From contig CM082576.2 in NCBI GenBank assembly GCA_040954595.2, positions 12,155,129-12,219,128 of the forward strand: a stretch of 64,000 nucleotides of DNA. Reading direction: 5' to 3'. The notes beneath the pieces were generated by a model that made no database searches, was not told where the DNA came from, and worked only from the letters and a program-made list of their open reading frames with translations. Numbering within the stretch: position 1 is the first letter of the stretch; each line of letters begins with the position of its first letter. Below are positions 1,431 through 22,618 of this stretch, piece after piece. The position numbers were made by a program, and so were the translations under genes. This DNA is from Balanoglossus misakiensis. Its lineage: Eukaryota; Animalia; Hemichordata.

Positions 1431-2978
1431 CTAGCATTCATCAGATTCGACCTCGGCTAACGTTTCGTTCCTGAGTGAGTACTGCCTCAGATACCGAACA
1501 TCGTCATAGTTCTTAACATGGGACGACTTTCCAGTGAGTCGCTCATACTCCATGTTTTCGGACGTCGCTCGGTTTTTCAGAAGCTCCTGCACCAGGCTTT
1601 TCAGCTGCACCGACGGCCGGCGCCTGTTCACTCGCTCTTCTACGTTGCCTCCCTTCTCGCTTATCTTCAGAGTGCGCAGCCTTTTCCAGATCGTGGCTTT
1701 CTCGTCGAGTTGCCCGATATCGGCTGGAACGCCTGGCTCGTTCGCCACGGTAAACCTGACCGTTTTGGACTTGAGCGGCGGTGACGTGACTCCGTCGGAC
1801 GACGCTGACGTCAGAGATGATCCCGTCGTCTTCGGCCTGCTGTCCGCAACAACACCCGTTGAAACTCCTTCGGATGTGGGGTTCGCCGCTGTCGCGTCCA
1901 CTGCTCCCTGCAGAATTGAATTCGTCTTTATGCGCGGCATGATCGACGACCATTTCTCCTTCGTTCCTTCCTTACTTCCGTCCTCCGTCGAGCTGCTCCC
2001 GCCTGTCGTCAGCTGCTTGCCGCTTGAAGTCGTCGAGTAGCGGTCAGTCTCGTCTCTGCGCTGGCCAGTGGCGCGAATGTGACTGTCTATCGCCGGCAGG
2101 AGCGGTACCCGCTCGGTCGTGTCGCTCGCCGCGGCACTTCCCCGGGAATCCCCGACGCTGGTTCCCGTTGGTTCCACTCCGTAGGCCCGCTGCAGGTCTA
2201 GAATCGTTTCCCACCCGTCTATGTCGATCCTCTTGAACACTTTCCTGTTCTCGCAGCGTTTTCTGATGATCACGAGGGGATCGACCGGCCCCGCGGTGAA
2301 TGCGTCTGGAATCACCACACTCGGCGGGTTGCCACCGTGGAAATGTCGCACCACTATTTTGCCGTCCGACATGAAGGTGTCCGGCGTACTGGCCGTTCGT
2401 TGCCTCCCGATCAGCGGCAGAGTGTGGCTCCTTGCCAGCCCTTCGACCATCTCGGTCGTTTTCCTCGCCCTTTCCCCAAACGCACTGACCGACCTCCGAT
2501 GCAGCGAGTACTTCTGTACTTTGTACCTGGCCTCCTTGATGGTCGGCGAAATCTTCACGTTGACCGTTTCGTGCACTTTGATGTCCATGGTCTTGGCCTG
2601 CTGCAGGTCCCACCTCTCCATCGCCCCCACCTTCCGGATTTCCGCCAGCGCTGACCTGTAGAAGTCCTCCCTGGGTGTGTTCACGTGCTTCGCCATGTTC
2701 GTCCCGAACTCGTCTTCCATGAGCGGGAGGATGATGAACCGCTTTTTGTTCTTGTTTTCCTGCCAGTAATTGAACTGCCCCAGCTCCTTCTTCAGCTTTC
2801 GCGCCTCCAGCTCGTGGTTTTCCATCACCCTCAGGTAGTCTTTCCTCAGCTCCGCCTGCCGTTTCTCCAACATCACCGAGTGCGATTTATTCTTGTGTCC
2901 CACCATGAGAGAGGTGTCAGACTTCTTGTACAGCGCCTGCGCTACCCCCTCGCTGTTGGACACTTGTAACGGACCCAT
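1431..2978 (-). CDS. Uncharacterised 515-aa basic, disordered protein with N-terminal coiled coil; array member 1 (CCDC190-like motifs)
   Basis: Single long GC-rich ORF within AT-rich flanks; ATG in a good context (ATCATGG). Coiled-coil block HKNKSHSVMLEKRQAELRKDYLRVMENHELEARKLKKELGQF, C-terminal YDDVRYLRQYSLRNETLAEV, and KTVRF and RRPSV motifs. Confidence 0.85.
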   Translation of the reverse strand: MGPLQVSNSEGVAQALYKKSDTSLMVGHKNKSHSVMLEKRQAELRKDYLRVMENHELEARKLKKELGQFNYWQENKNKKRFIILPLMEDEFGTNMAKHVNTPREDFYRSALAEIRKVGAMERWDLQQAKTMDIKVHETVNVKISPTIKEARYKVQKYSLHRRSVSAFGERARKTTEMVEGLARSHTLPLIGRQRTASTPDTFMSDGKIVVRHFHGGNPPSVVIPDAFTAGPVDPLVIIRKRCENRKVFKRIDIDGWETILDLQRAYGVEPTGTSVGDSRGSAAASDTTERVPLLPAIDSHIRATGQRRDETDRYSTTSSGKQLTTGGSSSTEDGSKEGTKEKWSSIMPRIKTNSILQGAVDATAANPTSEGVSTGVVADSRPKTTGSSLTSASSDGVTSPPLKSKTVRFTVANEPGVPADIGQLDEKATIWKRLRTLKISEKGGNVEERVNRRRPSVQLKSLVQELLKNRATSENMEYERLTGKSSHVKNYDDVRYLRQYSLRNETLAEVESDEC

Positions 2979-5903
2979 GATGGCCGAGAATCAGTTCCAG
3001 GCGTCCTTCGCTGTGACGTTACAAGAATTACACACGCACAGTGTTACATTTTTTCAATTGCACTTTCTGCTGTTCTTCCTCAGTCTGTCTTTTCTGCCAA
3101 CTACACACACACCGTTGCCAACGTCGATGCCGATGCTAAGTCACGTGGTTTGTTGTTGTGTTTACCTTCTCCCCGGTGTGCAAATTTGCGAAGTTGCCGA
3201 GATTGAAAGTGGTGACCGCGTAATCCCCGATGAACACTATCTAGCGAACAAATGTTTGCGGAGAAATTTTTGCCCCGCATACGGCGTGTGGACTATGGAA
3301 TGCCGGTGGATCAATCCCGTACACGACAGCAGATTTTTTTTACAAACGACTCACCGGACTCTGAGACGCGGACGTGGAAATTCTTCCCCCAGTGTTGCGA
3401 ACAAGGTGCCCTCCGTCCGAAACAGCGCAACGCTAACAAAAAAAAACTAACTTTTATTGACCATTCACCACTCGCGCTAAAAGTTTCACGACCGTCCAAC
3501 AGACTCAAAAAGAACTTTTCATGCCGACCGCGAGGTATCGATTTCTGATGCCACGCAACCGCAGCCGCTCCGTTCTGTTTATTGCTCCGTGCGGCAACCG
3601 GCATTGATTTTTTGGTAATCACTGCTCGGTTTGTTTTCGATCCACGCAACGTCACTCTCATTTATAGCGGATGGCAAATACCGTTCGATATATCTGGTTC
3701 ACCAAGTCACGCGCCTTTCAAGGATAATCCTGCACTCAGTAAACATCGGTGTATTCATTGCCCATTGTTCCCTTCAACCGAGTCGAGTGGTATTTGGAAT
3801 TGGTCCGTTTCGGCAACCAATTATTTAATTAACACGTGGCCATGACAACTTGTGTTGTTTTCTTTTTGTTTTAATAATTCAACAAACAACACTTATCGTC
3901 GGCCCATTTTAAAGCTCTTGCTAAATGTTAATTGAACGCGAAATAATCATGATTAACGATACCGTAAAAACTGAGATGATAAAATCGAACGTCCCTGTTC
4001 ATTTTCTTATTGTTTTTTTTTATAAGCCCAACAAACAAAATTAATATTTTCATCGATTTAGCTAATCGGTAATTCAAGCGTGAAAAAATATTCATGATTG
4101 ATCACACGTCCGTAAAAAAACTGACGAAAAATAAAGTTGAACGTCACTGTCGCGATGTAATTTGCCTCTAACGTACAGCCCGCTTCGTTCAAAGTAGCGC
4201 TTGGTTTTAAGCGACACAACAAGGAAAGTTTGAAGTTAAATAAAAGTCCGCAAAAACCTTCTGTATCGTAGAAAGCCATGACCATCCCCACATACTCGGT
4301 TTAGCACAAATAATTGAAAGATTTTTGTCCACACCATTGCTTGTTCGCACGTGAGTGACCAAGTTTACATCAGACAAGATATAAGCCAACGATGGTGGCG
4401 CTCTATCAACTTACCAGTTGACGAGGAAAATGAGTCACTGAGCAATGGATGAGATTCTATTATCTCTTTTATTTATTTAAAATTTATTGAATACACATTA
4501 TATATGTGAAATTGTAATAAAAAATAATCATTGCACAATAATGTTATCTTGGACGTTAGTGTCATCGTTGCGACCTTTGACCACAATGACCCCAGGTCCC
4601 TTCCAACTTATCCAAGAAAAGACATGACAACTGCTGACTAGACGCCAAAGACAGCAAAATCATATAAATTCAACATTGTTGTTGTCTAAAATCGGGTAAA
4701 ATAAAAAAAGATTTCTCTGAAGATTTAATTGTCCGCTCGGAAGATTCACACTTTCACGTACCATATAAATGATATTTGGACATGTAAGTTGCAGGATACT
4801 TTCGATCACAACTGACGGTGGCGCCCTCCAACCGTCGTCAAAATAATAAAAAACAATGCACTGAATGTTGACCAGACTCGTTGGGGTCAAAAATCGTTTG
4901 TCATGTTTATGCAATCTGAGCGAGATGCGTTGCATATCGTCGATGGTACGCATGGTAGTATTTTCTGTTCACTGAAACGCTAAGTTTCTGCAGTTGTTCT
5001 GAATCGCCCAAATCTATCCACTCCAGCAATCGCGACCAGCGCAAGTTTTGCAATCTTGCAATCTTGAAACTCAATTACTTGTAAATTGGTGACTTCGCAA
5101 CAAGTTGTAAACATAGCATCATCCTTACTTGAGTCATATCAAATTAATGCACATGTAAATAGAGAATTCCTGTCAATAAAATAGCCCTGTCACATACTCA
5201 GTGTATACTGTGTCTCCATTCATGGGCTGGGCGCCTAGTCAAGTCTTCGGACATGTCAACTTTAAAACCACCTGTTAGATCAATATTCCGTCAATAAAAC
5301 AAGTCAGAAAATACAAATATACTACAAATATACTAGTCTCGCCCAGAGAGTCGCCGTGCGTTTCTTTCGTGGCCGTCGATCACGCGACGCCGTCCGTAAG
5401 CTACTACATGGACATGTAGCAGTATCATTACTATAAAAGACTGCAAATCAACGTGTCACGTGATATGGACATGGGGAATTTGCATATAACGGCGTTTCGT
5501 TATATTCAAACAAGGCATCAAGTGGAGCGACGTGTTAATGGATGGTGGACACCCATAGGGAAATGATTAACAATTGTCGATGAAGAGTGTTTGCATCTTC
5601 GTCAGTTGATTTTTCGTTGCTAAATCTGCATACTTCGTATGGTTAGTAGCTTGTCCTGCGGATTATTGTCAAAGTCACATTTCAAAATATCGTGCGAGGT
5701 GATCGGAAATCTGTATCATAACATGTACTTACCAGAATTCTAAGCACTTAACCATATATGATCTCTCTCAACATTAATTCTATATATTTTGTGTAAATTA
5801 AAACGAGTGATTTCAATCAAAGTGGAAATGTCTTCTGTTTGGAGTTTCTGGGCCAAAATTTTTCACTTTGGTGTGGCTGTGTCTAATCTTGTGCGGCATA
5901 CGT

Positions 5904-7001
5904 TCACTGGATCGAAATTACACTCGGAGAAATTACAGACCCCATTTTTCTTCTGGGCGTTGACGTTGGCGGCGGCAGCGACGAAGATGGTCGATTTGTG
6001 GCCGTCGGCGACTTCAGCGCCGAGTTGCTGTTGACGTCGATCGGGGAGTCCTTGCTTTCGGCGGCGGGGCCGGCGCCCCCGCGGTAGGACGACGGCCTCC
6101 TGACCGGCACCGTTGCCAGGGAAGTTCTGGAGAACGCTCTGGTCAGCTGGCGCAGTTTCCCCACCTGTTCGTTGTACTTGGCGCTTATCCGCCGGTTCAC
6201 CTCGTTGTACTCCTCCTCGGGCTCCGGGTCGGCGCCCCGATAGTGGGAGAAAGAGCGGCCGCGCACCCTGACTTGGCGGAGGTGTCTGTCCTTGTTGCCG
6301 TCGTCGTTGTTGTCCGGTGCCCCGTGAAAGCGCGGATTTGGATTTCCTTCCTCTTCTTTCTTCTTCTCCAGCATGGAGAACAGCGTGTTGCAAATGCTGG
6401 CTCTCAGCATGATCGCCTTCTGCCTGTCTTTGAACTTCCAGAAGGAGTTCTTGTTGTTGGTGGCTTTCCTCAGGTGCTTTTCCGCGTCCGACGGCGTGGA
6501 GAAACTGGCTCTCCGGGCCCAGTAACTCAAACCCGGCGCCTGTGGCGAAGTCGAAGCGTCGGGGCCTTCTTCGGAGTTCTCCGAGCCCTCGTCGTCGAAG
6601 GGGTCGCTGTATAGAGAGCGCTTTCTCACCGGTTTGGCCTCGTTCTGCAGGAAATTGTGACTTCGCGGTAGACCCACCTCGGCGATAGACAGCGGGGGTC
6701 TGCTCACTGAGTCGGCCGCGGGCTCGAAAACGGGTTTCTCGTCGGCCTTTCCCGTTGCCCGCTTCGCCGTCTTCTGTCCGGCGACGTATATTCCCTTGTC
6801 GTCGACGGTTTGTACGGATCGCAGAAACTGCTTTGTCTCGTTCAAACAGCGTTGGTGGGACAGCATGTTCATAGAGTGGCTCCGTTCCAACTTGGCCGTC
6901 TTTTTCTCCAGTTCCGCTTCCCTGTGCCGGTACTGCCTAGAATTCATCACTTCAACTTCACCGAGCGTGATTCGATGCGGAAAATGTCCCCTTTTCGACA
7001 T
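5904..7001 (-). CDS. Uncharacterised ~365-aa basic, disordered coiled-coil protein; array member 2
   Basis: The ORF track starts at a GTG at 7010; the first ATG is at 7001 (AAAATGT). Shared motif MNSRQYRHREAELEKKTAKLERSHSMNMLSHQRCLNETKQFLRSVQ; also RRASF, RKRSL and RRPSS. Confidence 0.85.
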   Translation of the reverse strand: MSKRGHFPHRITLGEVEVMNSRQYRHREAELEKKTAKLERSHSMNMLSHQRCLNETKQFLRSVQTVDDKGIYVAGQKTAKRATGKADEKPVFEPAADSVSRPPLSIAEVGLPRSHNFLQNEAKPVRKRSLYSDPFDDEGSENSEEGPDASTSPQAPGLSYWARRASFSTPSDAEKHLRKATNNKNSFWKFKDRQKAIMLRASICNTLFSMLEKKKEEEGNPNPRFHGAPDNNDDGNKDRHLRQVRVRGRSFSHYRGADPEPEEEYNEVNRRISAKYNEQVGKLRQLTRAFSRTSLATVPVRRPSSYRGGAGPAAESKDSPIDVNSNSALKSPTATNRPSSSLPPPTSTPRRKMGSVISPSVISIQ

Positions 7002-9621
7002 TTTGTCCACACTATTCTGGTCCAGACAGACTTTATATAAACATCCAAGTTAGCGGTCGGCGGCGAAATCAAATCGTACTCAGGCCATGAAGTACGAGCC
7101 CCTCCCGACCAAGCAGCGCGAAAACCTCTCCCTGCCAGCAGCGTTTGCGCTCAAGACTGGAGCTATTCGCGAGGAACGTTGTTATTTAACGCTAGAATTC
7201 GTACCTTGGGGCAAAAGCGCTCATTTCCCCCCAAAGCGACCCGAGTATCCGAAGGATGCCATCCCCGACTTCAATACAGAGATAGAAAACTTATTCGCCC
7301 GCTCGCCACAAGAAGCGACGAAAATTCGTTATATTTCCTTCGCTCGTCGTAAGACCGGTGTCTCAAACGCCTTTTGACGCGTTCTCGAGTCTTAAGTAAA
7401 GAGAGTAAAGTGGGGCTGATATGATCGTGTCTGTCTTGTTTGTTTTGTTCGTTATATGTAAATTGTGAAGATCTAAATTCGGCTTGAAAGGTTTCTTTTG
7501 TACAGATGCATTCCCCCGGTTGAATGGGATGCGACTACTTGAAGTGATCGAACAAACAGTGAAGAACGCGGAGAGACAACATACGGAAATGTGGACGCCC
7601 AACTCAGATGGTGTTAATGAGGAAAACGCGTATTTTGTCAAACGATTATCATGGGTAGTGGGCAGTTTCAAAAAACTGCTGCGATTTGGTGCGTGTTAAA
7701 AAAAGATCACTTTTGCTGGGCTGAAAAACGCAGTACCTTGAGGGCGCCTGTTGCGTGGCTTTCTTTTTCGTCACTGGGGTCGAACGACAGAACATGTAAT
7801 TTGAGATAATCCTTCTTTTGGCTCTTTGGATGTCAAACTGAATGCGGCGACAGTAGTTCGAGAGATGATGAAATCGGTAAGAAGATCAACAATAAAAGAG
7901 GGGAAAGGGGGTTTTGTACAATCGCTGACAATGGGTCAAAAGCTGCAGGGACGTCAAGCGGAATATGCTGTTAATTGGCAAACGAAAAACTCGGGGCTTT
8001 GAGATGTCAGTATGCGAGAGTGTGTCTCTGGGGGCTTGTTCTCATTTGTAAGCCATTATCCCGCAATTTGACAAAACCCGCCTTTGAAGAATCGCAACAC
8101 CAATAACCGATTAGTCTACGGGGATTAGGTGTTTGGGCTGCGAGGAAACCGTGACCATGCCCCCAGGGGGGAGTGGATGACGTGCTTCTGTAAACACAGG
8201 TTGTCAACGTCTACGCAAAAAATAGAAAGTGCAAACAAACTGCTCATTTATATCCTTCACTGCAGACGTACCTATATAGAATAGTACTTGTCAATTTCCC
8301 GGATGTTTGCTGCTATTTTGAGTACCTCCTTCCACCTCTCCAGGTAACTTCACAAGGAGTGGGTTTTTTAATCAAAAGAAACGAGTAAATAAAACCGCTT
8401 TTTGTGGAGAAGAAAGAGGCCCTGGATAACAAGTGGCAAAAGCAAATAGTGAAACGAGCGAAGGTTTTTTTTGTGTGTGTGAAGTGTCCAGCTGGTCGCG
8501 TGGTCGTCCTTGTCAGTCATTAGACTCACCTATGAATAAATTGAACGAAATATAACAAAGAATAAAAGAAATAACGACTAGAGTCATTCAGTTTTTGTTT
8601 CAAATATTGCCAATTTTTATATGTCGAACTTAGCATTACACAATGTGAGATTTGAAGTCTCTTACAAGCACAGATTGATGAGGTTGACAATTTAACACAA
8701 CGTCACGTTAATAGTAAACAATCTTTTCCGTGCCTTATTTCCTCGCCTTTAATGTAAATATCGATTTTTCTCACATACTGCAAACAACACTTCAAATTGA
8801 AACAATTCATGCGACTTCTCAGACGTGGCTGACGAGAGAGAAAAAGTGCATTAATGCTCTCGAATTCTACCAATTAACAGTTGTGTTTACATATAGATAA
8901 GTTAAACTATGGTACACTTTTAATGACACAAACCTGTCTGTTCACTTCTCGTTATGTCGAAAGCAATCATGTGATGTCAAAATCAATATCGGGCAAAACA
9001 CACAATTCATTTTTTTTAATTCTTGCAATTCTTTGCAATACATACTGACGTGTTATCAGTGCTGATAGAAGGCGGGAGTTTCTATAGAGAGACACTGCGG
9101 GGGAAATGGTTGCATTTAAATTTGAAATTCAGTCGGGGAGCGGATATCTATTGATTTTACCGCCTGACGCAAGTGATCATGAGTGCTTGGTGGTTTCAAC
9201 GGATAATATAAAACGTCACCGCATAAAACTCACAGGTGTAATTGTGTCAAGACAAATAACATAAACTTTGAATCGGGTCGTCAAAAATGCCGAATGCCCG
9301 ATGACGATGGCAAGTATTACTGCCAATATCAACAAAAGAAAGAGACCGAACATAAAACTTAATCACGTTGCTATGCCCTAATCGTTAAAATTCGTTCCAA
9401 TATGGTAGCTAGGCTACCCACAGACAGAATTTATAAAGTAACAGTCAAAATTGCATTGTTTTCTGCAAAAAACGCACTGATAAATAAACACTTTACAGCG
9501 TCCTGCAACGAAATATTGGTGTTTGCTTCAAATCGCAGGAACACGCAGGAAATGTTCGCTCAGGTTTCTGTAGCGGCTGCGGATCCAATATGGTCGCTTG
9601 CTATAGTTACATCACTCAGGT

Positions 9622-10719
9622 TCAATCGGCCACCATGGTCGCTTCTTGGAGAGCTGGTAGCGGTGTTAAACTATTGGGCTCGCCACCCTGCGTGTTAATG
9701 ATATTATCGACAGACCGATACTTCACTTTGGATGCCCTCTTGACGTTTTCTTTATTCCTTTCTTTCAACACGTCGGTGGGATTTGAGCTCAGACGCTGGC
9801 GCCCCTGGGTTATGGCCGGCATTTTGTACTGAGCGTTCGTTGAGTCTATGGAAGGCAAGTTGGAAGCAGTCCGGCCGATTCGTTTATCTTGGCCGTTCTC
9901 GTTCACTCTTCCGACCAGAAACGACCGCTCCCTCGTCAGTTTGGGTATGCTCGTAGTTCTGTTTAGTTTCTCCTGCAGTCTTTCGCGGCGGGAGTGATTG
10001 CTCTCAGAGACTGAGTTGTTGAGGTATCCGGCGCTGTCTAGCCCCGCCTTATTTTCCTTTTCCTCTCTCGCTTCCAAGGGTAGGAGTATGTTTTTGCCAG
10101 TTCCTTCTTTGGTGAGGGAGACCTTCCCGCTTCTGACGGCGGGCAGTGTCAGAGAGTCTTCGCCCGTCAACATCTCCGATGCTCGGTTCTTCTTGGTCTC
10201 TAACCGAAGGCTGGCGTTGAAGACGGTCGGCAAGCGCGGCAGCTGGAATCTCTTGGCGCCCCGGCTGTTCTCGTCGGCGCGTTTCTCCGCTTTCTTGTTT
10301 TTCACAATGATCAGCGACTGGTCTTCTTCTAACTCGCCGGCCAGACCGAATCTCCAATACCCTTCAAATATGGCGTCGACTCTGCGGATCAGCTCCTCTG
10401 TCGGCAGCGCGTCAACTTTCCGCCTTCGCCCGAAGTCTCGCCCGGCGATGCTGGGATCGGTATTGGTCCTCTCTAGACCAATCAGATCGAGTCGTTTCCG
10501 CCATGGCAGGATGCTCTCGATGGCCTTGACTCTTCGATCGAACTCCTGTAATTCCAGCACCTCCCTTTGATGTTTCTTCATCACCGACGAGTACGTCTTG
10601 GCGATCTCGTCGAACTTCTTCTTCAGCAGAACCTCGAAGGCGCGGCTGTTGCTCAGCATGAAGAGCGCGATCTCCCGCTTGCGCCGCCTGTTGCGCGCCT
10701 GCCAGGCCGAGTACTCCAT
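9622..10719 (-). CDS. Uncharacterised 365-aa basic coiled-coil protein; array member 3
   Basis: Single-exon ORF with ATG in GCAAATGG. Shared motif LSNSRAFEVLLKKKFDEIAKTYSSVMKKHQREVLELQEFDRRVK; repeated LPRL/LPAV/LPSI/MPAI. Confidence 0.85.
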   Translation of the reverse strand: MEYSAWQARNRRRKREIALFMLSNSRAFEVLLKKKFDEIAKTYSSVMKKHQREVLELQEFDRRVKAIESILPWRKRLDLIGLERTNTDPSIAGRDFGRRRKVDALPTEELIRRVDAIFEGYWRFGLAGELEEDQSLIIVKNKKAEKRADENSRGAKRFQLPRLPTVFNASLRLETKKNRASEMLTGEDSLTLPAVRSGKVSLTKEGTGKNILLPLEAREEKENKAGLDSAGYLNNSVSESNHSRRERLQEKLNRTTSIPKLTRERSFLVGRVNENGQDKRIGRTASNLPSIDSTNAQYKMPAITQGRQRLSSNPTDVLKERNKENVKRASKVKYRSVDNIINTQGGEPNSLTPLPALQEATMVAD

Positions 10720-13508
10720 TTGCCCGGGTGATCGGTTTGGTCGCTCGCTCGCTCGCTAAGCTTGCCCTCTCGCCCCGCTCGCCGCTGATGCCTCACTGCA
10801 TCGCCGGTGGAACGGGCGGCTGAACAAATGCCGGTGGGAGGGGCAATCGATATCTGAATCCTATTCCAGTGGGAAAACACTTAAACCGTGCTTTTCGGGT
10901 ATGCTGTGATTTCGAAGTAGCAACTCGACGGTTGCCCCTGAGTCTGGTAATGAGGCCAAAGACTCCCAACAGTTACATTCACGAAATAACGGCCGTCCTT
11001 TAGAAACTTAGCAATACAAAAGTGTTTGCCACGGCAGGTCCGGAGAGGCTGAAGATAGCGGTAAGAGGCTGATGAAGTGTATTGTTTTTATTGACTACGG
11101 CAAATGCCTGTGAGGAGCGGGTATTGTTTGCAAATAAAGACATTATTTTACGTAATCTACCGCTGTTTGGCGTCCTTCATAATGACCACCAGCGATCATA
11201 TAGTCAGCAGCCAGAAACCGCACTATGCCTGATTATGAAATGGCGCGATTTACGTTACCAAGCAACTTTGATCACCTGATCATCCTTTGCGTGTGATTCT
11301 TCCATACTGAAAGTTTGCAAGATTGGCGACCACCCTTTAAAGCAACTAATTGCCCAGTCCGACCGACCGGTACCCAGAAAACATGCACAGAACATGTTCG
11401 ATCTGTAAGCTCCCATTGTAGCCATTTCCAATTGGATTTAAGAGTTCAATTCTCAGGCATTGTTTTCCACTACGCGAAAGAGCTAAATTTAGACTCAGTG
11501 CGCAAATGACCGACGATTAACGAGAACGTTGAAAAGACAGAAATTCGGCGTTTTGTGACTAAAACTTATCAAACTGTTAATAACTTCAATGCCTTGTTCA
11601 CATAAGAGGTTTTAATTAGAACGCATTTAACGTACGTACGAACGATGGTTTGCCCGAGGGATTTCTCCCCCCGAAGCTATTTCACTTAATCCCGCTTTAT
11701 GTTTTAGTACATTGGAATAGTAATACACGAGATCTGCTGTACATGTGTAAATACCCCCAGTGGAGTGGGGAAACATTTGTAAATAGTAACCTGCTTGCCA
11801 AATACCTTGCGAGGCGCTGTTCGTTTTTATTTAATTTCTGAAACCAAAGTTTATGACTTACAACACAGAAAGAATTCTAACTAATTAATTAAATTTTTGT
11901 AACTAGCTAACCGGCTATTGACATTTCTGTGTTGACATCAACTCACTTCAGACATATCAGACAATTTCAAGGCAGAACGTGCATGCACTAACAACCGTAC
12001 CGTTATGAGGGAAATAACACAAATGAGTCAGTCATTGTTGAAAGTCGAGCTGTTCAGAACTTTCCCCGATTGCCATAAATCTGTACAATAAAAAGAGGGA
12101 ATCTGGAAACAGTTCACGCATCGACAAATATTTCTCAATTTAGGTACATGTACTATACTGTGATGTGGCCCTTTTGTTCGTTGACCGTTCTCGTCCAAAT
12201 AGGCTTTCACATCCAGTCGATATATTTAATAATTAAACGTGAACTTGCCCTTTGCACTGGTTCAAACTGGGAGTTAAATCACGCGTTACACGTGCAAATC
12301 TGCTTTAATAAACGCAGCCAGCCAGTCCAGTATCCGGACGCTCAGTTGTTGTAAACAGGCGCTGTGCGAAAAGTGAGCACTCAAAATGCGGTTTCACAAA
12401 CATTCAACTGGTCAATCTTCCATCATTCACACGTAAACTAGTATCTCAGCGCTTTACCGCCAAAATGCAATTTAATTATGTGTAGCTGCTAAGAGATTCG
12501 TGAATTTAATCTTCGTTCGAAGAAATGCTTCGTCTTTTTTATTGCATTTTTTACGTTTCAAGTACACGTACACGCAGCATCGTACCCTCATTTTTCCGGC
12601 TTGAAGAAAACAAACAATATCAACAAACGCGTTACTTAGGTAACTTATACTGATCTTGCGACGTCCAACAAAACCTATATATCACATATCAAATATTTAT
12701 GTTTTTGTCATCGACTAATATTCTTCGTCTGGCTGATATTGCCTGCTTCCGTTTCATTTATGGGTATTGAAAACAATTTCCCCTTCATTGTCGGTGCAAT
12801 TACTAAGATTATTTATTTTCCAAAATTAAACGCCAGAGAGCAAACAGCGGTCATGTGACCAGCATAGTGGTAACGTTATTACCACCTGCATTCATGTTAC
12901 ATTCGTTATTAAATTTCTTCATTGAGTAATTGCCCCAGTCATGTACATGTATATTGAAAGTCGGTTCCGCCATAGTATACATGTACCTGTTTTACCGTAT
13001 GCCGCATCACCATGGCGACGAATGTAAACAATGCGTCTGCGCTGTATTTAGCGATCAGCGACCTTTTTGCCACAACAATGATAGAGTATTGTCTTGTACA
13101 TGACCAGTATTTGTTATTGTGTTCACGGGTGAGTGATGTCTTTGTTTCATAGCGTTGGAGTTCACGCAAGAATGGGGGTTCTCGGACGGCTCTCGTGGGG
13201 AGCTTCGTCGCGCGGCGTCTCTGAGCAACTCTATGGTCGATCAGGCTGTAACTATTTAGCTTTACGTTGACTTGATGGAATTAAAAGATAATCGCGTGCT
13301 TCAATTGGCCGAAATTTACACCAAATTGCATGTGATTTAAGGAGCCATATTCCTTATCAAAGACAACGTGGAAACCCCGCAAACAATGTGCGTTTATCTT
13401 GTTTTACGTTAGAATTATATTATTCAAAGGAATTGTGGAAGAGTGGATGTCGCATTCTACAGTTCAATATCTAAATGATGATGGTGATGGTGGTGGTGTT
13501 GGTGGTTG

Positions 13509-13614
<106 letters not shown>

Positions 13615-14832
13615 CAACAAGTTGACCTTCGACCTCGACTTTTGAAATAAAAACTTTATGCTAACCAGTAATACCAATGAGGACCGCCAGATTTATTCGA
13701 ATGAAAGAGTGAGCGCTTTGCCAGATGGAAGATGCTATCTTAGATTTATGGAATCTATTAAATATTCACGCTTTCTTCTGAGCTGCAAAAAGGGTCGTCC
13801 CGTTGACTTCTAATTAACTCCCGATCACCCCAGCCTATAAAATATATTGCAGTTGTTAAGAAAGTATACGACAACTTAAAAGCATCTGATTTCAATTTCG
13901 ATGTCGATTCCCCTTTTGTTGCGGATTTACTACACCATCAAGTATCTCCAAACATACAAACTTTGACCTTAAGTTACCACACACACACGCAAACACAATG
14001 TACTTTGTGTCATGAAACGGACCTTGCGCTCACACGTCCATTACGAGTGTCATGTCAACCTAAACAACGCCTTCAGATAAGGCGTCCATCGACTCCAACA
14101 CGCCGAAACGGCCATGGTGACTCTCAACAATCCCCGCTTGTCCATGAATGACGAAATCCAATGATTTGCAAACAGTAAAACTTTATTGGGCGTATATTAC
14201 ATATAAATCTGTTGTAATGACATGGTGGTGACTGGTTTTATTGAGGGTGTTTGGTTTGCGCTGCAAAGGGGTCTTCTTGACACTGGTTTGGTATGTACAC
14301 AACCAGGACTGGTACACAAACACATTAACCGGTATTTATCATTTTACGCAGTATTCAAAGTACACTCAAAACTGCATTGGATGTGTTTGTCGGATTCGCG
14401 TCTCATCCCAGTTAATGTGACAAGATTTCGTCGTCGAGATTAGAACGGTGATTGAGTGGGTGGTGTTTACCGTGAGAAAGATGACAAACGCGATGAAGCG
14501 GCTTTTTTTGTGTCTCGAGTGAGATGTTTTCCTATTGATCTGTCTTAAAGCCAGGAACTGTGATAATTGACAGCAAATTTGCACTTAACGGTTCGATCGC
14601 ACAGAAATGGCAAACATTCCTTGTAAACAGACAGGGTAAACTTCAAGCTGCCCGGTGTGCGTTTGTCCGGGCGCAGAGAGCAAGAGAAATTGGCCGGAAT
14701 CTGCTCCCGTGTTTCGGATCTAGCGCCCGCGAGTGAGAGTGACGTCTCGCCGTTCGTCATGTGCGTACTTCACCGCCACACAGGCAGGGCATGCGATGTT
14801 GTGAATAAACCTTCTGATTCTCCTGGTAATAA

Positions 14833-15792
14833 TCAGTAACGGGCTAATTGGGGCAGTGTCATGGTGCTCAAGTTTAAATTCTGAGTCAAGATGCGTCCCC
14901 TCACCAGGCAGCGCTTGCACAGTCCGCCCCTCGCCACTGTCCTTGCGAGAAATCCCTTTCCCTTCGCTCGGCTGTGACTGCATCCCTCGCCGTGGTGCGC
15001 TCCGTCGTTCTTCTGAGAAGAAGCGAGACTTCGGCTTCCAGCGTCCAAACGAGGCAGGCTGCTACTCTGCACGCTGAATTTCCGATCAGATCTTGCTCCG
15101 TCGCTCAACTTGGGAGCCACGTACAGTTTAGGCAAAGACACTATGCGATCACTGGCTTCTTTGGCGGCAGAATCATCATCCGCGATTTTCGTTGATGAGT
15201 CAAACTTCGGCGACTGAATCCCGATCCCAGCGCGTGCCCTCCTCTTCCTCTTCAGGATCACGCCGAGTGCCGAGTCTTCGCGTTTGATACCGTCCTCGCT
15301 TTCGCGTCCTGATTTTTTCGCATCCCTCAGATTTCCCTGCAACTTCCTCAGAAACACTCGCAGATCGTAGATTTCGCTCTGGTGGCGCCGCATGGACTCC
15401 TCGTGCGATCTGGTCAGCTCGTCGAACTTCTTCTGCAGTTCAGTCTGCTGCGTCCCGAAGTTCCCGGACCCGGCGAAGTCCGCGGCGGCGTCCGTCTGGC
15501 CGCTGGCCCTCCTCCCCCTGTTGACGCGGACGTTGTAACTCTTGCGCGCCGCCGTGGTGTTGCTGTCGGCAACCCGGTCGATCTCTTCGGTGCTGCGCGA
15601 CTTCTCCATCATGCTCAGTGGCGGGAGCCGCCTGGACGCCCGCCGTTTTATTCGGCCCAGCGTATTTAGTGGCCCGTAACTGCCGGCCTTCGACAGTCGC
15701 CTTCCACCTGCCACCTCATTATCGATATTAAATCGAGGTCTGCCGGAGTCACCTTCTTTGAAACGTTCCGCTGTCTTCAAGGATGGAAACAT
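14833..15792 (-). CDS. Uncharacterised ~319-aa basic coiled-coil protein; array member 4
   Basis: The ORF track starts at a TTG at 15822; the first ATG is at 15792. Shared motif GNFGTQQTELQKKFDELTRSHEESMRRHQSEIYDLRVFLRKLQ; RRLS, RRAS twice, and SLPKL/SLPRL/TLPQL. Minus-strand AATAAA at about 14182-14187. Confidence 0.82.
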   Translation of the reverse strand: MFPSLKTAERFKEGDSGRPRFNIDNEVAGGRRLSKAGSYGPLNTLGRIKRRASRRLPPLSMMEKSRSTEEIDRVADSNTTAARKSYNVRVNRGRRASGQTDAAADFAGSGNFGTQQTELQKKFDELTRSHEESMRRHQSEIYDLRVFLRKLQGNLRDAKKSGRESEDGIKREDSALGVILKRKRRARAGIGIQSPKFDSSTKIADDDSAAKEASDRIVSLPKLYVAPKLSDGARSDRKFSVQSSSLPRLDAGSRSLASSQKNDGAHHGEGCSHSRAKGKGFLARTVARGGLCKRCLVRGRILTQNLNLSTMTLPQLARY

Positions 15793-17767
15793 CTTGAGAC
15801 GCTGCGACCGACGACCGCGCAACTACGCTACGAAGTGTGCGTGCACGCCGCCGAGACAAACCCCAATTTTCTTCAGGTGGCAATCAGCTTCGTCTTATCC
15901 CTTCTTTTCTCGTTTACGTAACGATTCAGAGACAAAACCTCCACTTCAAAAAATACTAGAGGGCTAAGCTTTCTGTTCATGCAATTGTGACAAGCTCATG
16001 TCTTTTTTGTAAAGGCCACACTACATAACGTCTGTCCATTCTCTCTTTATTTGCTACTGCCCTCATCATTTGCTTGTTCTCAAAACACATCACTGCGCAG
16101 TGTGGTTCGCGGTTGCCGTTGATTTACACAGCATAAAATGACTTTTTTTCAAGACTCTACGATTAGGCGATTGGTTCTTTTCCACTTTCCCTGTTTTGAT
16201 CAAACCCCGAATGTGATAGACAGACAAACGCGGCGTCCATCATTCCAATGCCCCAAGGCGAAGGAAAGCGGAGACATCGGACAGCTTGTCATTTTGTCAA
16301 TTTCACCTGCCCTTTGAAACGCACTGAAATGAATGGCAAGCAGACAGCGATGCTGACATAAGAAAACTCAAAGCAACGCACGGACACAGCTGAAAGCATG
16401 ACTCCGTTCTCGCATTTCACAATTTGATTTTCGTGTATGTGTGAATGGAGCCTATATTCCTCGCTCGGATCTACTACTATAAATTAAAACAAAAGAAGTG
16501 ATAGTGTTTGACCCATATTCCCCGGAGTCGGAGCAACCACCTGTTGATTTGTGAACGTGCCGGAATGACCACTTTCGCTACAGCGGCCCTCTACAGTTCA
16601 CTCCGAGGAACACTTTCTTCTATCGGACCTCTCTTACGTCACCTCGACTCGATTAGAGAAAACCACCAGCGATTAAATACTTTTAGGAACAAAAATGGAC
16701 AAAATAACGAGTTCAACAAAATAATGTCCACATATGTAAATGGTTTGACTGAGAGTGCAAGGTGTGAGAGTACTTTGATGGCTATAACGAATTTATTCCA
16801 AGATTTGTATGGGTAAAGGTAAAGGCCATGAAGTGCACCGTGACGTGCAAAGATAAATTTAATTTGTTCAGAAAATTATTTCCTTCGATAATCTAAGCGA
16901 TTCCTTTTAGTGGTAAAACACACGTCAAAATTTCCACACGATTGCGTCAATAAATGGACAATCACCCAGCTGAGTACTAACCAGAAATGAACAAGATGAA
17001 ACTGCTTTCCCCCGAAAAAGCCCTCGACCGTCACTGATATACGCCAGACGGAAAATAAATCGCGGTGTAATTAGATTTAGATGGCAAACACACAGTTTAA
17101 ATTAGTAGTGCACACACCAAGTAACGCAGTAATTAAAGCGAGAGCCAGTATTTGCGTGGAATGGGTCTTTAACCTCGACGTCTCGACAGGAAGATGAATA
17201 TTTCCTGTTTTCCATCGTCGCGACAGTCGACTCGCACGGAAAACGCAGCCGGACTAATTTCCAATACAAATTCAGACGGCGTTTTTTAACATCTTATACA
17301 AATGGTAAAGATCACCGTCTTCACTACAGGCTGTTTCTTCATGATAGACCCCGGATGTTGGTGACTCGCTCATATTGGGGCATAGCACATTGGTAAGATT
17401 GGTAGGAGTCTAGCGCCGCTCAGTGACCTGTACTGGCCTTGAATGACCAACGGGATGGATCTCAAAGACACAAGCAGTTGCAATATTTAAGATCCACAAT
17501 GGCGAATCTCAAAATTGTATGTGTTAAATATCTTTATTTAAGAGTAACTTAAAGGCTACAGGTATCTAATCCTCGGATTCTACCACGACTCTGGCAGCAT
17601 CGTATTACAATGGACGGACCGCAATAGAATGTTAAATTTCATTACATTCTTGTTAAAAATTGTCAATGTTGTGCCCTCATACTGTGAGGTAGAGTATGTT
17701 TTAACACAAGGAAAATGAATTAAGATTCGACTATATATGCGTTACATTATGTTATGCTGTATTAAAT

Positions 17768-17832
17768 AGTACAGTACAATACGTCACAGTACAGTACAGT
17801 GCAGTTCAGTACAGTACAGAACACCACAGTAC
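17768..17832. repeat. Degenerate (AGTAC)n pentanucleotide repeat
   Basis: agtacagtac...acagtacagtacagtgcagttcagtacagtacaga. Confidence 0.7.
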
Positions 17833-18914
17833 GTACACGACTGAACATAATGACGTTTTCTTGGTTCAGAAAAATCTCACAAAACTACACAACACATTAT
17901 ATAATGTGCGCTGTGTTATATTCAAAATCGACTGCCGTTGTAATTAGGCGCTCATCTCCAATACTCTATCTTGCTCTGACATCCACACTTGGATTTACTT
18001 TGAGTCACTCTGATTGGAACAACATATATTATGTATACGAGTACGTTATTCTGTCGTCTGTGGAACTCTTGGGTATGTTATTGTAAAACTGATTACATCT
18101 TCTCCGACTAGCAGAAATAACTGACCCTTGTACATGAAAATATATTACAAAATTACACCAATAGTCAGATTTTGAAGTCACTGTGTAACAATACAATGCT
18201 CCCATATTCCGGTATTGTTGTGTTGTTTTTTCAGAGAAGCTAATTTAAGGTCCGACTTGGATAAAGTTTTCGTAGTTATTAAAATTTATATTAAAGGATT
18301 GGCGCGGAAATGAAAACGTTAATCTTTTTACGTCGCCATCTCCTGTGATGGTTACTTTGGTATTCGCCGCCCACGATTTTCTGCGAATAAATTAAAATGA
18401 CCTCATGAGAAGTTTGTCAGCGAAGAAAGCAAGCTGTATTATGTAAATATCAGTCTCATTTTCTCTTGTTTGGAGAAGTCGTTTGCGGCACTCCTCCGCC
18501 GATGACTGATTTCAATGACATGTAACCCCTATACACTGATTTAATATTTGTCACAATGTTTGTGTCGCGTGCCTGTGTAGGGTCAGTCACTGATCTAAGC
18601 CTCCACAAGGAGCGATAGCTTGCAATATTCACCAGTGAACCGCTGTTCTCAGTGTGGCTGCCTGGCTCTCTATCTGCATCCCGGCCCTTGTTCGATCGGT
18701 CAGTCGTTCATCTAAAATTGAAACTTGAAAGTCATGTCTTCGGTAACAAAATCGGTTTCTCTGCAGCTGAGCCGGAGAGCACAATGATGAAACCGAGACC
18801 AGTTTGGACGACACAGTCCATATCGTCTGATGAAAAATAAAGTGCGCGGGACATTCCAGCATGCAGTCTGGAGTAACCCTATATCGTTTTACTCCGTGTC
18901 AGTGGCTTCGGGCG

Positions 18915-19055
18915 CACGAAACTGAAGAAATCGAAGACACTCTCTGTTTAAACACGAACCCCTCTCGTAAAATACGCCAATGTCTGCGACCGGTTGTTTT
19001 GAAAGAGCTTGGTCACGGACTCATTCCTCTGTGTCAGGTGTTACTGTATACGTGT
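18915..19055 (+). mobile_element. Possible degenerate LINE ORF2 fragment (pre-RT region)
   Basis: ETEEIEDTLCLNTNPSRKIRQCLRPVVLKELGHGLIPLCQVL resembles the recalled LINE pattern T.EEV...L..L.P.K..GPD.I...VLKELA..L.P.L, but GPD is absent. Confidence 0.25.
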
Positions 19056-19836
19056 TCCTACAATTGCATTTGCTTTCAAAACAAATACCTCAGTCCATTT
19101 TCAATAGAGGGGGGCGGGAGAAAGCTCCAAGAGACCCTCGTATCTGACAGCCCAAGAATAACAGTCGAACACAAGACAGAAAATTGGTGTCACCGTCAAA
19201 ACTAGACCGCAACAACTTAACTACCAGGGGATGTTTTGACCCGCCGATGAAGTCCGAAGTTCGCGATGTCAGACCGCATAAAAAATAGCGAGGAATTTGA
19301 AGGGCGGCATTGACCCTATACAATCTCCTGACAAATTCAACGATGATGTATCGCCATAATCACGGAATGATGAATGAACTCGGTGACAACTCACGATAAC
19401 AGAGTCTCAGTCGCTGCACCTTGTATAAATACACTAATCACGTACGATTCAAGCGCTGTGTAAATCGTCCGACAATGCCTCCAGCAAGCAAATCGGGCAG
19501 ATCAGAACAAGCCCACACTGTTGATTTGTCGTTTTAAACGGGCGTGAGCCGAAAAGAACATTACTAGACTGAGACAGATACAGTTATAATACTAGTAAAA
19601 TAAGTTATACAAGATGGAATACACAGATTTGTAATGAAAGTAGGCCTAGAGTATAAAGATCTTGTGTTACTTTGCTGTCGTAATATTATTACCCGTCTTA
19701 GAACAGATTGCGTGTGGAAATTCGTCATGCACATTCTCTCACTTATCAACTTCGTTTCTGAGTCAACCATAAGAGCTTTCAAGTCTGATCCAGTAAAGAA
19801 TTCAGCCAGCAGGCAGCGTTGCTTTCAGACTCCTAG

Positions 19837-20604
19837 CTATGCCGCCTCTGTTTCTCGATTCCTTTCTGTGGGCATAAGCAGCAAGTCGGGCAGCGACGCG
19901 GGTCTTCGCAGGTCGAATTTCTTTTTGTCTTTCTGAGAGGGCAAAACGTTTGACCTTTTCTTTTCTCTGGTTGGCACTCTCGACTCCCGAAATGAGGCCG
20001 TCGTCAGCGACCTGACAGGGTCAATATTTGGCAAATCCGATCCCTTTCGGCCCTCTTCTGGATACGACGGCTCTTCTGGTAACCCTGGCAACGGAACTTT
20101 GCATCCGTGTTTCTCTTCGTCCGATGATTCCAAATTGCTGTCCTGTCTTTTTCCCTCGTCGACATTTCTGCTTGAACGACGGCGCTTGCGCTTGTCGTCT
20201 CGGCTGTGTCCGTGTTTCTTGGGCCTCTCCTCTGACTTGTCGGTTTTCTTCAAGACAAGAACCGGCAGATTCACAAGCTGGTTGTCGACCCGCACCTGTA
20301 CCATTTCCGTCTCCGTCTTGGCGATCAGCCGCCTCCGCCGATGGCGACGATCGATGCGCTTAAGGTCGAGGGCCACGGGCCGCAATTTCTGCACGTCGTT
20401 CAAGAACTGCTTCAGTTCCAGCACTTCGGTGTGAGTCTTGCGAATGAAATCGCGGTGCTTCACGCGCAGATCCTCCAATCGGGCTTTCAGTTCGCACTCG
20501 TGGGCCTTGTACTTTGACGAATTTTGCACCTTCGTCTCCGAGGGGAAAAACATCCCCTCGCCCCCCTCGATGTACCGCCTAAAGAAGGATTTGGATCGCG
20601 GCAT
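19837..20604 (-). CDS. Uncharacterised 255-aa basic coiled-coil protein; array member 5
   Basis: Single-exon ORF. Shared motif VQNSSKYKAHECELKARLEDLRVKHRDFIRKTHTEVLELKQFLNDVQ; Arg runs (RRHRRRR, KRKRRRSS); LPNID and SLPDL. Confidence 0.82.
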   Translation of the reverse strand: MPRSKSFFRRYIEGGEGMFFPSETKVQNSSKYKAHECELKARLEDLRVKHRDFIRKTHTEVLELKQFLNDVQKLRPVALDLKRIDRRHRRRRLIAKTETEMVQVRVDNQLVNLPVLVLKKTDKSEERPKKHGHSRDDKRKRRRSSRNVDEGKRQDSNLESSDEEKHGCKVPLPGLPEEPSYPEEGRKGSDLPNIDPVRSLTTASFRESRVPTREKKRSNVLPSQKDKKKFDLRRPASLPDLLLMPTERNRETEAA

Positions 20605-22483
20605 TCTCCTGCCGTTTTCCGTCTACTCCAGTCGAATCGGACCAATAGCTAGCTCAGTTCTTGCCCTCCATTAAGCAGTTCACCTCCAGATCGTTATCCA
20701 GACAGCGACGTCAGCTCTCGCCAAGATTCCGTCAGACGCCAGACTCGCGACGGAAGTTCATTTACGTCGAGTGACACGCGCGCGCTCGGCACAAATATAT
20801 ATATGTTGACTGTACAGCGAGTGTTTTCACCTTTGGATGTCCAGTGTGTCACCAAGTAACTAACACCGCCCCTCCCCTTCAACGCTGCCAGTAAATCGAT
20901 ACCTCTATCGTCCAATGTTCAGTCTGACTTCATACATCACACCCCTCAGGTGCGATTATCAAGCTCTGATAAATCAGGACTGCCAGCCACGCTTGACGAC
21001 CCAAACACGCTAACCTTTCAACCACGGTGTGGGTGCGTCGGTGCATTCGGAGTAGGGTCACACTTTGCCAGGTCAACCAAGACCCGCAAAGTCTCCAGTG
21101 TTTGACGCCGACGTTCCAACGTTGTCACGTGCGTTAAAAAAAATCGAAGGAAACAGTTACTGACGAATTGGACTTATAACAAACTTTTACCGCCAGTCTG
21201 ACAGACACGGGGTTGTTATTACGTCACCGAATTCCCTTTCCATCCCAATCAGGGTAATAACAGCCTGAATTATTATACCACGCATACCATTATGGCACGA
21301 TTAATCATGCTGACTCAAGTTCCAAAGATATACATCATATAGCACCTCAATCACGTGGTTCAATTTCTATGACCTTGATTTTTTTTATAATTCATCTATG
21401 ATATTGCTCGGTCTTTATTTTTCAGTTCATTATAAAAATTGCGACATACGCGGAGTTTTTTTGCCAAACTCTTGTTTTGAGGTTCTTGTTGCGGGGGTCA
21501 GTGCTTTCGGGGAGATCGCTGCTATGTGGCCGAAGCAACAGGTGGTTTGCTTTGTTCAAGATATAGGTCTTTCGGCAAGTGCAGAAACAATCATTGCCTG
21601 CACATCATTAAATGTAAAAGCTCTCGGTGTGTACTTTGCGTCGGCGTCAGTTTATAAATCGGAGCGTACGTCCAGCCTGTACAATGGTCGACGCACTGCA
21701 GGGCTGTCGGTATATATGCACTTGTTGCTGATCTCGTCTCACAATAATTGGAGTCATTTGCCGCTTGAGTTGCGTTGTGTAGACAACCGAGACACAACGT
21801 CATCGGTGGAATGCGGTCTACGTACAGGACAGCGAAACATATACAACCATTGACAATCCGCATCAGTAAATACACCAATTGCAAGGCTGACTTATTTAGG
21901 GTGTGAATCATAAAAGATATTGAACTGTTTCCACAATAAGTACGCACTTGTGCGCTATGAATCCCCTGGGCGGAGCTCAGTGTCAACATATGAATGACTT
22001 TCCTTTGTTCGAATCGTTTATTCACCCCTTTACTTGTGTGCCGACATGTTTTTCAAAGTCATTTCAGTGTGTATATCGATTCCACACCAGTAGTTACATT
22101 GTATTTCATGCATTCGGTAGAAACGCTCGACCTTTACCGAAGCAGTCACGTCGGTCAAGGTGTCGGATAAGTTTAAGTCTCCTTGTCTGACGTCATTTGG
22201 TGATCTCAGTGCACATCTACACACGTCAGACTACACTCTGTTGTTATTTCTTGTTATTTACACGACAAGATGACAACATGCGAGAAAGGTCGTGTTGTAC
22301 AAGTGCGCTGTCCACTGGAATTGACTCTCTCCCTAGCTGTCTCATTAACTACTCATCAGTGGCCGAGCGGATAAAAAAACTAATGTAACGAGTCAGTAAA
22401 CAATTATGGTAAACACTGGCTATATAGGCGCCACAAGACTTTGTTATTGCGCATTACACCACACTACTCTTCATTACATTACA

Positions 22484-22618
22484 CCACAACACAACACAAC
22501 ACAACACAACAAAACACAACACAACACACCACACCACAACACAACACAACACAACACAACACAACACAACACAACACAACACAACACAACACAACACAAC
22601 ACAACACAACACAACACA
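22484..22618. repeat. (ACAAC)n pentanucleotide microsatellite
   Basis: More than 20 near-perfect ACAAC units. Confidence 0.97.

What the first reader, a model, noticed from the sequence alone, without database searches (positions are those of the whole stretch)
1431..20604. Tandem array of five highly diverged single-coding-exon paralogues sharing one coiled-coil signature: candidate undescribed gene family/cluster
Seen: five minus-strand ORFs (starts 2978, 7001, 10719, 15792, 20604; spacing 3.7-5.1 kb) are GC-rich islands with no coding introns. They look unrelated except for one ~45-aa block. G1 KNKSHSVMLEKRQAELRKDYLRVMENHELEARKLKKELGQF; G2 MNSRQYRHREAELEKKTAKLERSHSMNMLSHQRCLNETKQFLRSVQ; G3 SNSRAFEVLLKKKFDEIAKTYSSVMKKHQREVLELQEFDRRVK; G4 GNFGTQQTELQKKFDELTRSHEESMRRHQSEIYDLRVFLRKLQ; G5 QNSSKYKAHECELKARLEDLRVKHRDFIRKTHTEVLELKQFLNDVQ. 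Consensus: N..S...E..L.K+..EL...H...M..HQ.E..EL+.FL..VQ. The rest of each protein is basic and disordered, and I saw no DNA-level similarity among genes or spacers. Inference: an old tandem expansion (perhaps from a retrocopy) under selection only on a shared interaction helix, i.e. interchangeable adaptors docking on one partner or hetero-oligomerising with each other. I cannot assign it to a characterised system.
Basis: partly seen in the sequence, partly recalled or inferred. Interest (0 to 1): 0.85.

Follow-up and report, generated by a model that had tools for sequence, protein, structure and literature searches.

The report
Unnamed five-gene helix-anchor cluster
Five neighbouring genes of an animal genome, each with an unbroken reading frame, encode floppy, positively charged proteins that share one 50-residue helix also found in seven unnamed relatives from other data sets, and they likely form an old, unannotated family of scaffold proteins, most likely working in cilia or sperm tails.

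Summary
Observation confirmed. All five minus-strand ORFs sit at the stated coordinates with coding-type codon bias (GC3 0.67-0.74). The shared block is homologous: no plain or heptad-preserving shuffle (0 of 2000 each) reached any left-out copy. A profile built only from seven outside homologues ranks exactly these five ORFs first among 2,150 six-frame segments; G1 is the weakest. The homologues are unnamed, with no Pfam, PDB or Atlas match. G2 is closer to its outside type (33-42%) than to its neighbours (18-31%), so at least that duplication is old. This argues against 'interchangeable' adaptors. The tails also carry enriched LPx[IL] and RRxS motifs, so constraint is not confined to the helix. 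The block is predicted to be one long amphipathic helix and the rest mostly disordered. RFX X-boxes upstream of G3 and G5 hint at ciliary or sperm expression, but I noticed them before testing. Best reading: paralogue-specific, helix-anchored, phospho-regulated scaffolds of cilia or flagella (0.45). CCDC190 kinship is a recalled lead; Pfam CC190 never hit. Expression, synteny, partner and oligomer state are untested. The scan had not noted this on other DNA.

The parts
1431..2978 (-). G1 ORF, 515 aa; block at residues 20-73; further predicted helices near the C-terminus (456-482, 492-514); weakest family member
2760..2921 (-). G1 conserved helix block
   Evidence: leave-one-out 12.7 bits in ORF context, 19.1 isolated; match to P0002, 10.6 bits; 29% to P0002
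5904..7001 (-). G2 ORF, 365 aa; likely orthologue of outside type A (P0002, P0003, P0013, P0014, L001)
6804..6965 (-). G2 conserved helix block (residues 13-66); AlphaFold2 predicts one long helix
9622..10719 (-). G3 ORF, 365 aa; N-terminal flank resembles outside type B, assignment not robust
10513..10674 (-). G3 conserved helix block (residues 16-69)
11254..11266 (.). Stringent RFX X-box match, 535 nt upstream of the G3 ATG
   Evidence: consensus from PMC2375033; function inferred
12631..12644 (.). Stringent X-box match between G3 and G4 (1.9 kb upstream of G3)
14833..15792 (-). G4 ORF, 319 aa; about 100-aa extension before the block; X-box match inside the ORF at 15559
15328..15489 (-). G4 conserved helix block (residues 102-155)
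19837..20604 (-). G5 ORF, 255 aa; X-box match inside the ORF at 20079
20383..20544 (-). G5 conserved helix block (residues 21-74)
20848..20860 (.). Stringent X-box match, 244 nt upstream of the G5 ATG (another at 21526, 922 nt upstream)

Best explanation
The five ORFs are paralogues of an old, unannotated animal gene family; each protein is predicted to be disordered apart from one conserved amphipathic helix, which likely anchors it to a partner or to itself, most likely in cilia or sperm flagella, while the basic tail likely carries phospho-regulated short docking motifs. Shown: the ORFs, homology of the block, seven outside homologues in two types, type-specific conservation, and motif enrichment in the tails. 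Predicted: the single helix and the disorder. Inferred: that the helix is the anchor (a conserved one-sided stripe L23, L30, aromatic 34, M38, H41, E44, L48, F51, L52, V55), that each paralogue has its own specificity, that RRxS sites are PKA-type switches, and that RFX drives expression in ciliated or sperm cells.
For: Leave-one-out and shuffle tests. Profile search of 1,835,955,588 representatives gave 5 hits at E<=1e-3, of which 3 are full-block homologues. A second search added 3 more (6 of 412 candidates), and a metagenome scan added L001, unbroken over its first 138 codons (1 of 82 pattern matches). An outside-only HMM scores G2 55.4, G4 34.4, G3 25.9, G5 25.2 and G1 12.9 bits, next best 5.4. 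Block identity is 54-83% against 26-47% for the rest in 5 outside pairs. One clade for the window five is rejected at p-AU 0.024. AlphaFold2 gives helix 14-60 at mean pLDDT 86.7; full G1 has 412 of 515 residues under pLDDT 50. Conserved columns fall on one helix face. pI is 9.6-10.6; LPx[IL] 13 vs 0.82 expected (0/1000), RRxS 9 vs 1.99 (0/1000), and outside homologues RRxS 14 vs 2.42 (0/1000). The stringent published X-box occurs 3 times within 1 kb upstream of G1-G5 vs 0.06 expected (0/300), and 6 of its 9 window sites lie at 11.2-21.6 kb. CpG o/e is 1.0-1.2 over the cluster vs 0.3-0.5 over the hnRNP L-like gene, the pattern of unmethylated, cell-type-restricted genes in invertebrates (established knowledge, recalled).
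Against: I saw two of the X-boxes by eye before writing the test. They occur upstream of only 2 of 5 genes (none within 1 kb of G1, G2 or G4, none in 2.4 kb upstream of L001), and looser published patterns are not enriched (221/300, 42/300, 17/300). PMC2375033 warns that an unconserved X-box is not predictive. RFX also acts in neurons and other cells. No ciliary structure matches by sequence or distinctly by fold. The ELLEn microtubule-inner-protein pattern is absent. Strict SxIP, RVxF and LxxIxE motifs are not enriched. LPx[IL] is absent from G2 and from 3 of 4 full-length type A proteins, and a shuffle null does not correct for proteome-wide dipeptide bias. G1's score is within the range of chance PDB matches (up to 22 bits). 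The G1 disorder prediction is from a single sequence. The tree has no starred branch and long end branches.
Confidence: 0.45

Rival explanations
1. Same family and helix-plus-tail design, but not ciliary: the proteins act in neurons, germ-cell nuclei or general PKA signalling.
For: X-boxes upstream of only 2 of 5 genes; no match to axonemal structures; basic, RRxS-rich tails fit many compartments.
Against: Local concentration of stringent X-boxes at G3-G5.
Confidence: 0.27
2. One reading: five interchangeable adaptors that dock on one partner or hetero-oligomerise through the shared helix.
For: Ungapped shared register with near-invariant L23, L30, E44, L48, F51 in 10-11 of 11 rows; tandem linkage on one strand.
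Against: Within-type block identity of 54-83% against 16-31% between neighbours, and a robust G2-type A pairing, imply paralogue-specific constraint; regulatory motifs differ between genes.
Confidence: 0.2
3. Membership rival, compatible with the best mechanism: the family is a remote invertebrate branch of CCDC190 (C1orf110; Pfam CC190) rather than an undescribed family.
For: Recall only: CCDC190 has an N-terminal helix with similar Leu/Glu spacing, a disordered middle and a short C-terminal motif resembling G1 residues 490-500. CCDC190 appears in a gene list dominated by motile-cilia genes (PMC6444505, passage), and C1orf110 in the lung cluster of PMC7331728 (supplement row).
Against: Pfam scans of 5 window proteins, 6 homologues, 11 isolated blocks and G1 pieces never listed CC190. 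No named protein was retrieved. The scan filters drop matches above about E 0.1, so remote kinship is not excluded.
Confidence: 0.35
4. Unrelated genes that converged on generic charged helices, or chance ORFs.
For: Pairwise identity of only 16-31%; G1 marginal; a generic helix gives many equal fold matches.
Against: 0 of 2000 heptad-preserving shuffles per gene; the outside-only HMM recovers exactly the five; codon bias; homologues start at matching positions.
Confidence: 0.03

Closest known systems
CCDC190 / C1orf110 (Pfam PF15768, CC190; alias, accession and architecture recalled)
   Same: Recalled architecture: one N-terminal helix plus a long basic disordered region, function uncharacterised. 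Appears in cilia-rich expression lists.
   Different: No Pfam CC190 hit for any member. Recalled as a single multi-exon vertebrate gene, against five unbroken ORFs in tandem here. Of 42 papers holding the term, the 30 listed have it in neither title nor abstract.
ELLEn-module proteins CFAP53, CFAP141, TCHP (PMC10973386, section 12 read)
   Same: Works like: a short conserved helical module shared by otherwise divergent proteins that docks them on one partner (NME7) in cilia or centrioles.
   Different: The published ELLEn pattern is not matched by any member. No conserved Trp. The rest of these proteins is disordered rather than a long coiled coil.
SxIP +TIP proteins that bind EB1 (PMC3967968, passages read)
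   Same: Basic, Ser-rich disordered tails with [ST]x[IL]P matches (7 vs 1.58 expected, 1/1000).
   Different: Strict SxIP is not enriched (1 vs 0.46). The excess is part of LPx[IL] and absent in the outside homologues (3 vs 3.03). [quoted passage not shown]
Lebercilin (PF15619) and generic coiled coils
   Same: G4 block scores 14.2 bits (E 0.033) on Lebercilin.
   Different: Far below the 34.3-bit cut-off, seen in 1 of 5 genes, and absent when the 11 blocks were scanned: generic helix similarity.

Membership tests
This five-gene family (self-consistency) | Shared ungapped ~50-aa block scoring above heptad-preserving shuffles | tested here: met
   0 of 2000 for each of the 5 genes; G1 weakest
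This five-gene family (self-consistency) | Recovery by a profile built only from outside homologues | tested here: met
   top 5 of 2,150 segments; partly circular, as 3 of the 7 homologues were found with the window profile
CCDC190 (PF15768) | Score above the Pfam CC190 cut-off | tested here: not met
   CC190 never listed
CCDC190 (PF15768) | Remote profile-profile homology of the N-terminal helix | not testable with these tools
   No CCDC190 sequence or unfiltered CC190 profile was available; one search found no held record to search
CCDC190 (PF15768) | Conserved C-terminal motif (recalled) | tested here: inconclusive
   G1 C-terminal 80-aa and 49-aa pieces gave no CC190 hit; filters drop weak matches; resemblance rests on recall
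ELLEn-module MIPs | Published ELLEn sequence pattern | tested here: not met
   no match in any window or outside protein
EB1-binding SxIP proteins | Enriched canonical SxIP in basic disordered context | tested here: inconclusive
   loose motif enriched in the window five, strict motif not
RFX-regulated ciliary genes | Stringent X-box near the start | tested here: inconclusive
   present for G3 and G5, absent for G1, G2, G4 and L001; noticed before testing
RFX-regulated ciliary genes | X-box conserved between species; RFX-dependent expression | not testable with these tools
   no orthologous G3 or G5 loci; no RNA runs listed
Known coiled-coil folds in the PDB | Distinct structural match | tested here: inconclusive
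   best Z 5.8, flat list of unrelated helices
Retrogene-derived cluster | Intron-bearing parent gene elsewhere | not testable with these tools
   no genome held; L001 is also unbroken over 138 codons

The most novel reading that the evidence does not exclude
An undescribed, ancient cluster of single-exon genes conserved across distant invertebrate animals, whose products use one shared helix to plug, each in its own cell type, into a common ciliary or flagellar docking site or into mixed helical bundles, giving a combinatorial, PKA-tuned code for different cilia (larval bands, pharynx, sperm), with CCDC190 as a possible lone vertebrate survivor.
Probability: 0.12. Interest if true: 0.7.

Novelty: new variant of a known kind. 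Interest (0 to 1): 0.4.

Why it matters
It defines a new ~50-residue helical module and a gene family that Pfam, the PDB, the ESM Atlas and the protein names in the searched collections do not cover, because homology is confined to about 10-20% of each protein. If the ciliary reading holds, the family offers candidates for what makes the cilia and sperm tails of these invertebrates differ by cell type, and it may give an evolutionary handle on the uncharacterised vertebrate CCDC190. The design itself (anchor helix plus disordered motif-bearing tail in a tandem cluster) is a familiar kind, so the surprise is moderate.

Tried and rejected
No whole genome is held, so other copies and synteny could not be searched; L001's record is not held either. 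No RNA holder was listed, which is no evidence on expression. None of the 7 window proteins is in the collection by exact sequence. Word-indexed searches with the five-block alignment (3,972 candidates) and with full G1 (7,993 scored) found nothing, although true homologues existed, so these blanks are weak. ESM Atlas: best scores 0.76 and 0.78, leads only. Two of the 5 profile hits were dropped as repeat-protein artefacts: P0001 (51 stretches in 4,665 aa) and P0004 (6 short stretches). The PDB sequence hit 9x1l (DNA helicase, E 0.0012 with 5 rows) fell to E 0.21 with 11 rows and was rejected. Foldseek gave 0 matches and VIA-align only generic helices; neither shows a new fold. The G2-G3 complex prediction was never run because the queue was full, so oligomerisation is open. 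G3 = type B orthology looked good pairwise (21 bits) but failed the bootstrap (G4 1031, G2 462, G3 340 of 2000). The type A C-terminal motif HMM does not hit G2, despite a suggestive MAFFT remnant. The idea that the ORFs are alternative last exons of one gene was rejected: no strong acceptors within 400 nt upstream, and homologues start at matching positions. The ORFs at 23809-24669 and 25104-26405 lack the block. No Rfam match in the window. No shared upstream 10-mer in 3 or more genes. Literature searches (listings) showed no description of this family. These are keyword searches of an open-access library and cannot find an unnamed family by sequence; bioRxiv supplements were closed.
Full report
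Observation. The five minus-strand ORFs exist exactly as described: G1 1431-2978, G2 5904-7001, G3 9622-10719, G4 14833-15792, G5 19837-20604. They look like real coding sequence: GC 0.54-0.59 against AT-richer spacers, GC3 0.67-0.74 with the second position lowest, stops in all five other frames, and chance probabilities of 1e-5 to 1e-9. Pairwise phmmer finds essentially only the block in common, and it aligns without internal gaps. In leave-one-out tests the isolated left-out block scored 19.1 (G1) and 33.9-40.7 bits (G2-G5); 0 of 2000 plain and 0 of 2000 heptad-preserving shuffles reached it in any gene, and no sixth copy appears among 2,150 six-frame segments. G1 is the weakest: 12.7 bits in ORF context, within the range of chance matches in the PDB (up to 22 bits). 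Its case rests also on position, strand and a match to P0002 (10.6 bits; 29% identity). Short DNA similarity survives inside the block, a minor correction.

Setting. Upstream of G5 on the same strand lie a separate, likely two-exon gene without the block, then GALM, a 2OG-Fe(II) oxygenase, an hnRNP L-like gene and a Spec3-family gene. This is an animal genome; earlier notes on other pieces call it an acorn worm, which I did not test. CpG o/e is 1.0-1.2 over the cluster and 0.3-0.5 over the hnRNP L-like gene. From established knowledge of invertebrate gene-body methylation (recalled), this suggests unmethylated, cell-type-restricted genes.

Homologues. Exact look-up and two word-indexed searches found nothing. 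An exhaustive profile search of 1,835,955,588 representatives gave 5 hits at E<=1e-3; two are repeat proteins and were dropped, three carry the full block near the N-terminus (P0002, P0003, P0005). Their alignment retrieved three more (6 of 412 candidates), and a metagenome scan gave L001, a 2.8-kb AT-rich fragment whose first 138 codons are unbroken. All are unnamed and have no Pfam family above cut-off; their lineage is not known to me. They fall into type A (P0002, P0003, P0013, P0014, L001) and type B (P0005, P0015). An HMM from these seven alone ranks G2, G4, G3, G5, G1 first (55.4, 34.4, 25.9, 25.2, 12.9 bits; next 5.4). This is partly circular, since three of the seven were found with the window profile. 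G2 is 33-42% identical to type A and 18-31% to its neighbours, and type A chooses G2 in 1946 of 2000 column bootstraps. Type B cannot be assigned (G4 1031, G2 462, G3 340). Holding the window five as one clade is rejected at p-AU 0.024 on a poorly resolved tree with long branches. So at least the duplication that set G2 apart predates the split from the animals carrying type A. In five outside pairs the block is 54-83% identical and the rest 26-47%. Type A also shares a C-terminal motif that an HMM does not find in G2.

Anatomy. With the 11-row alignment (L23 invariant; L30, E44, L48, F51 in 10 of 11), AlphaFold2 predicts one helix over residues 14-60 at mean pLDDT 86.7. Full-length G1, folded without an alignment, is confident only in the block and a short C-terminal helix; 412 of 515 residues are under pLDDT 50. 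The conserved columns lie on one face, with a heptad stutter, a conserved His and Glu, and a widened hydrophobic patch at the C-terminal end. I infer a specific binding surface rather than a generic coiled coil. The proteins are basic (pI 9.6-10.6) and enriched for LPx[IL] (13 vs 0.82) and RRxS (9 vs 1.99; outside homologues 14 vs 2.42), each 0 of 1000 shuffles. RRxS is the PKA consensus (recalled). The ligand of LPx[IL] is unknown; the motif is absent from G2 and most type A proteins, and strict SxIP, RVxF and LxxIxE are not enriched.

Regulation. The most stringent X-box consensus of PMC2375033 (passages read) occurs 9 times in the window, 6 of them between 11.2 and 21.6 kb, and 3 times within 1 kb upstream of G3 and G5 against 0.06 expected (0 of 300). 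I had noticed two of these by eye beforehand. G1, G2, G4 and L001 have none upstream, looser patterns are not enriched, and the paper warns that unconserved X-boxes do not predict regulation. RFX factors drive ciliogenesis and spermiogenesis (PMC2375033; PMC4498915, passages). This is a hint, not proof.

Mechanism. Most likely (0.45) each gene makes a disordered, basic scaffold that is anchored by its helix to a partner or to itself, with paralogue-specific affinity, in cilia or sperm flagella, and is tuned by phosphorylation of the tail. Rivals are a non-ciliary role (0.27), fully interchangeable or hetero-oligomeric adaptors (0.2) and convergence (0.03). Expression could not be examined, and the complex prediction was not run because the queue was full.

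Comparison with known families. No Pfam family passes its cut-off, no PDB sequence or fold match stands out, and the Atlas gave only sub-0.8 leads. From recall, vertebrate CCDC190 has the same overall layout and similar helix spacing, and G1 residues 490-500 resemble its C-terminal motif. CC190 never hit, but the scan filters drop weak matches, so remote membership stays open (0.35). CCDC190 itself is uncharacterised in what I saw: 42 papers hold the term, none of the 30 listed in title or abstract. It is a marker in PMC8516792 (passages), sits in a cilia-rich gene list in PMC6444505 (passages), appears as C1orf110 in PMC2820080 (passage) and in the lung cluster only in PMC7331728 (supplement row), and is absent from 12 supplement files of PMC13096173. 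The family may work like the ELLEn module proteins (PMC10973386, section 12) but fails that pattern. Passages of the hemichordate genome paper (PMC4729200) did not mention such a cluster; its supplements were not read.

Verdict. A real, old, unannotated paralogue cluster with a new helical module. The design is of a familiar kind and the function is inferred. Interest 0.4; new variant of a known kind.

Noticed in passing
window 26405-25173 and 24744-23809 (-): Likely two-exon gene (about 722 aa; GT donor at 25172, AG acceptor at 24745, phase 0) encoding a Ser-rich disordered protein with many RRxS sites. No Pfam hit and no family block; it lies in the same CpG-rich domain as the cluster.
   Followed up: partly
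window about 30200-32610 (-) and 40900-55400 (+): GALM and an hnRNP L-like gene are near neighbours, separated by a 2OG-Fe(II) oxygenase gene. From recall, human GALM and HNRNPLL are adjacent, suggesting old micro-synteny.
   Followed up: no
window 33230-33243, 30804-30818, 60088-60101: Stringent X-box matches between the 5' ends of GALM and the oxygenase gene, within the GALM span, and near the Spec3-family gene.
   Followed up: no
window 61350-61814 (-): Exon of a Spec3-family ('ectodermal ciliogenesis protein') gene, Pfam PF15795, E 1.4e-20.
   Followed up: partly
window 1-30000 vs 34000-58000: Sharp change in CpG o/e, from about 0.9-1.3 to mostly 0.3-0.5, suggesting a boundary between unmethylated and gene-body-methylated domains.
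   Followed up: partly
window 1479-1511 (-), G1 residues 490-500: Short C-terminal stretch in a predicted helix that resembles, from recall only, the C-terminal motif of CCDC190.
   Followed up: partly
P0002, P0003, P0013, P0014 C-termini: A second conserved ~40-aa motif shared by type A homologues and not detected in G2; P0013 and P0014 also carry RVxF-like PP1-docking matches.
   Followed up: partly
window 13475-13612, 22480-22620, 31770-31832: ATG/GAT microsatellite, CACAA pentanucleotide array, and a 63-nt imperfect palindrome.
   Followed up: no
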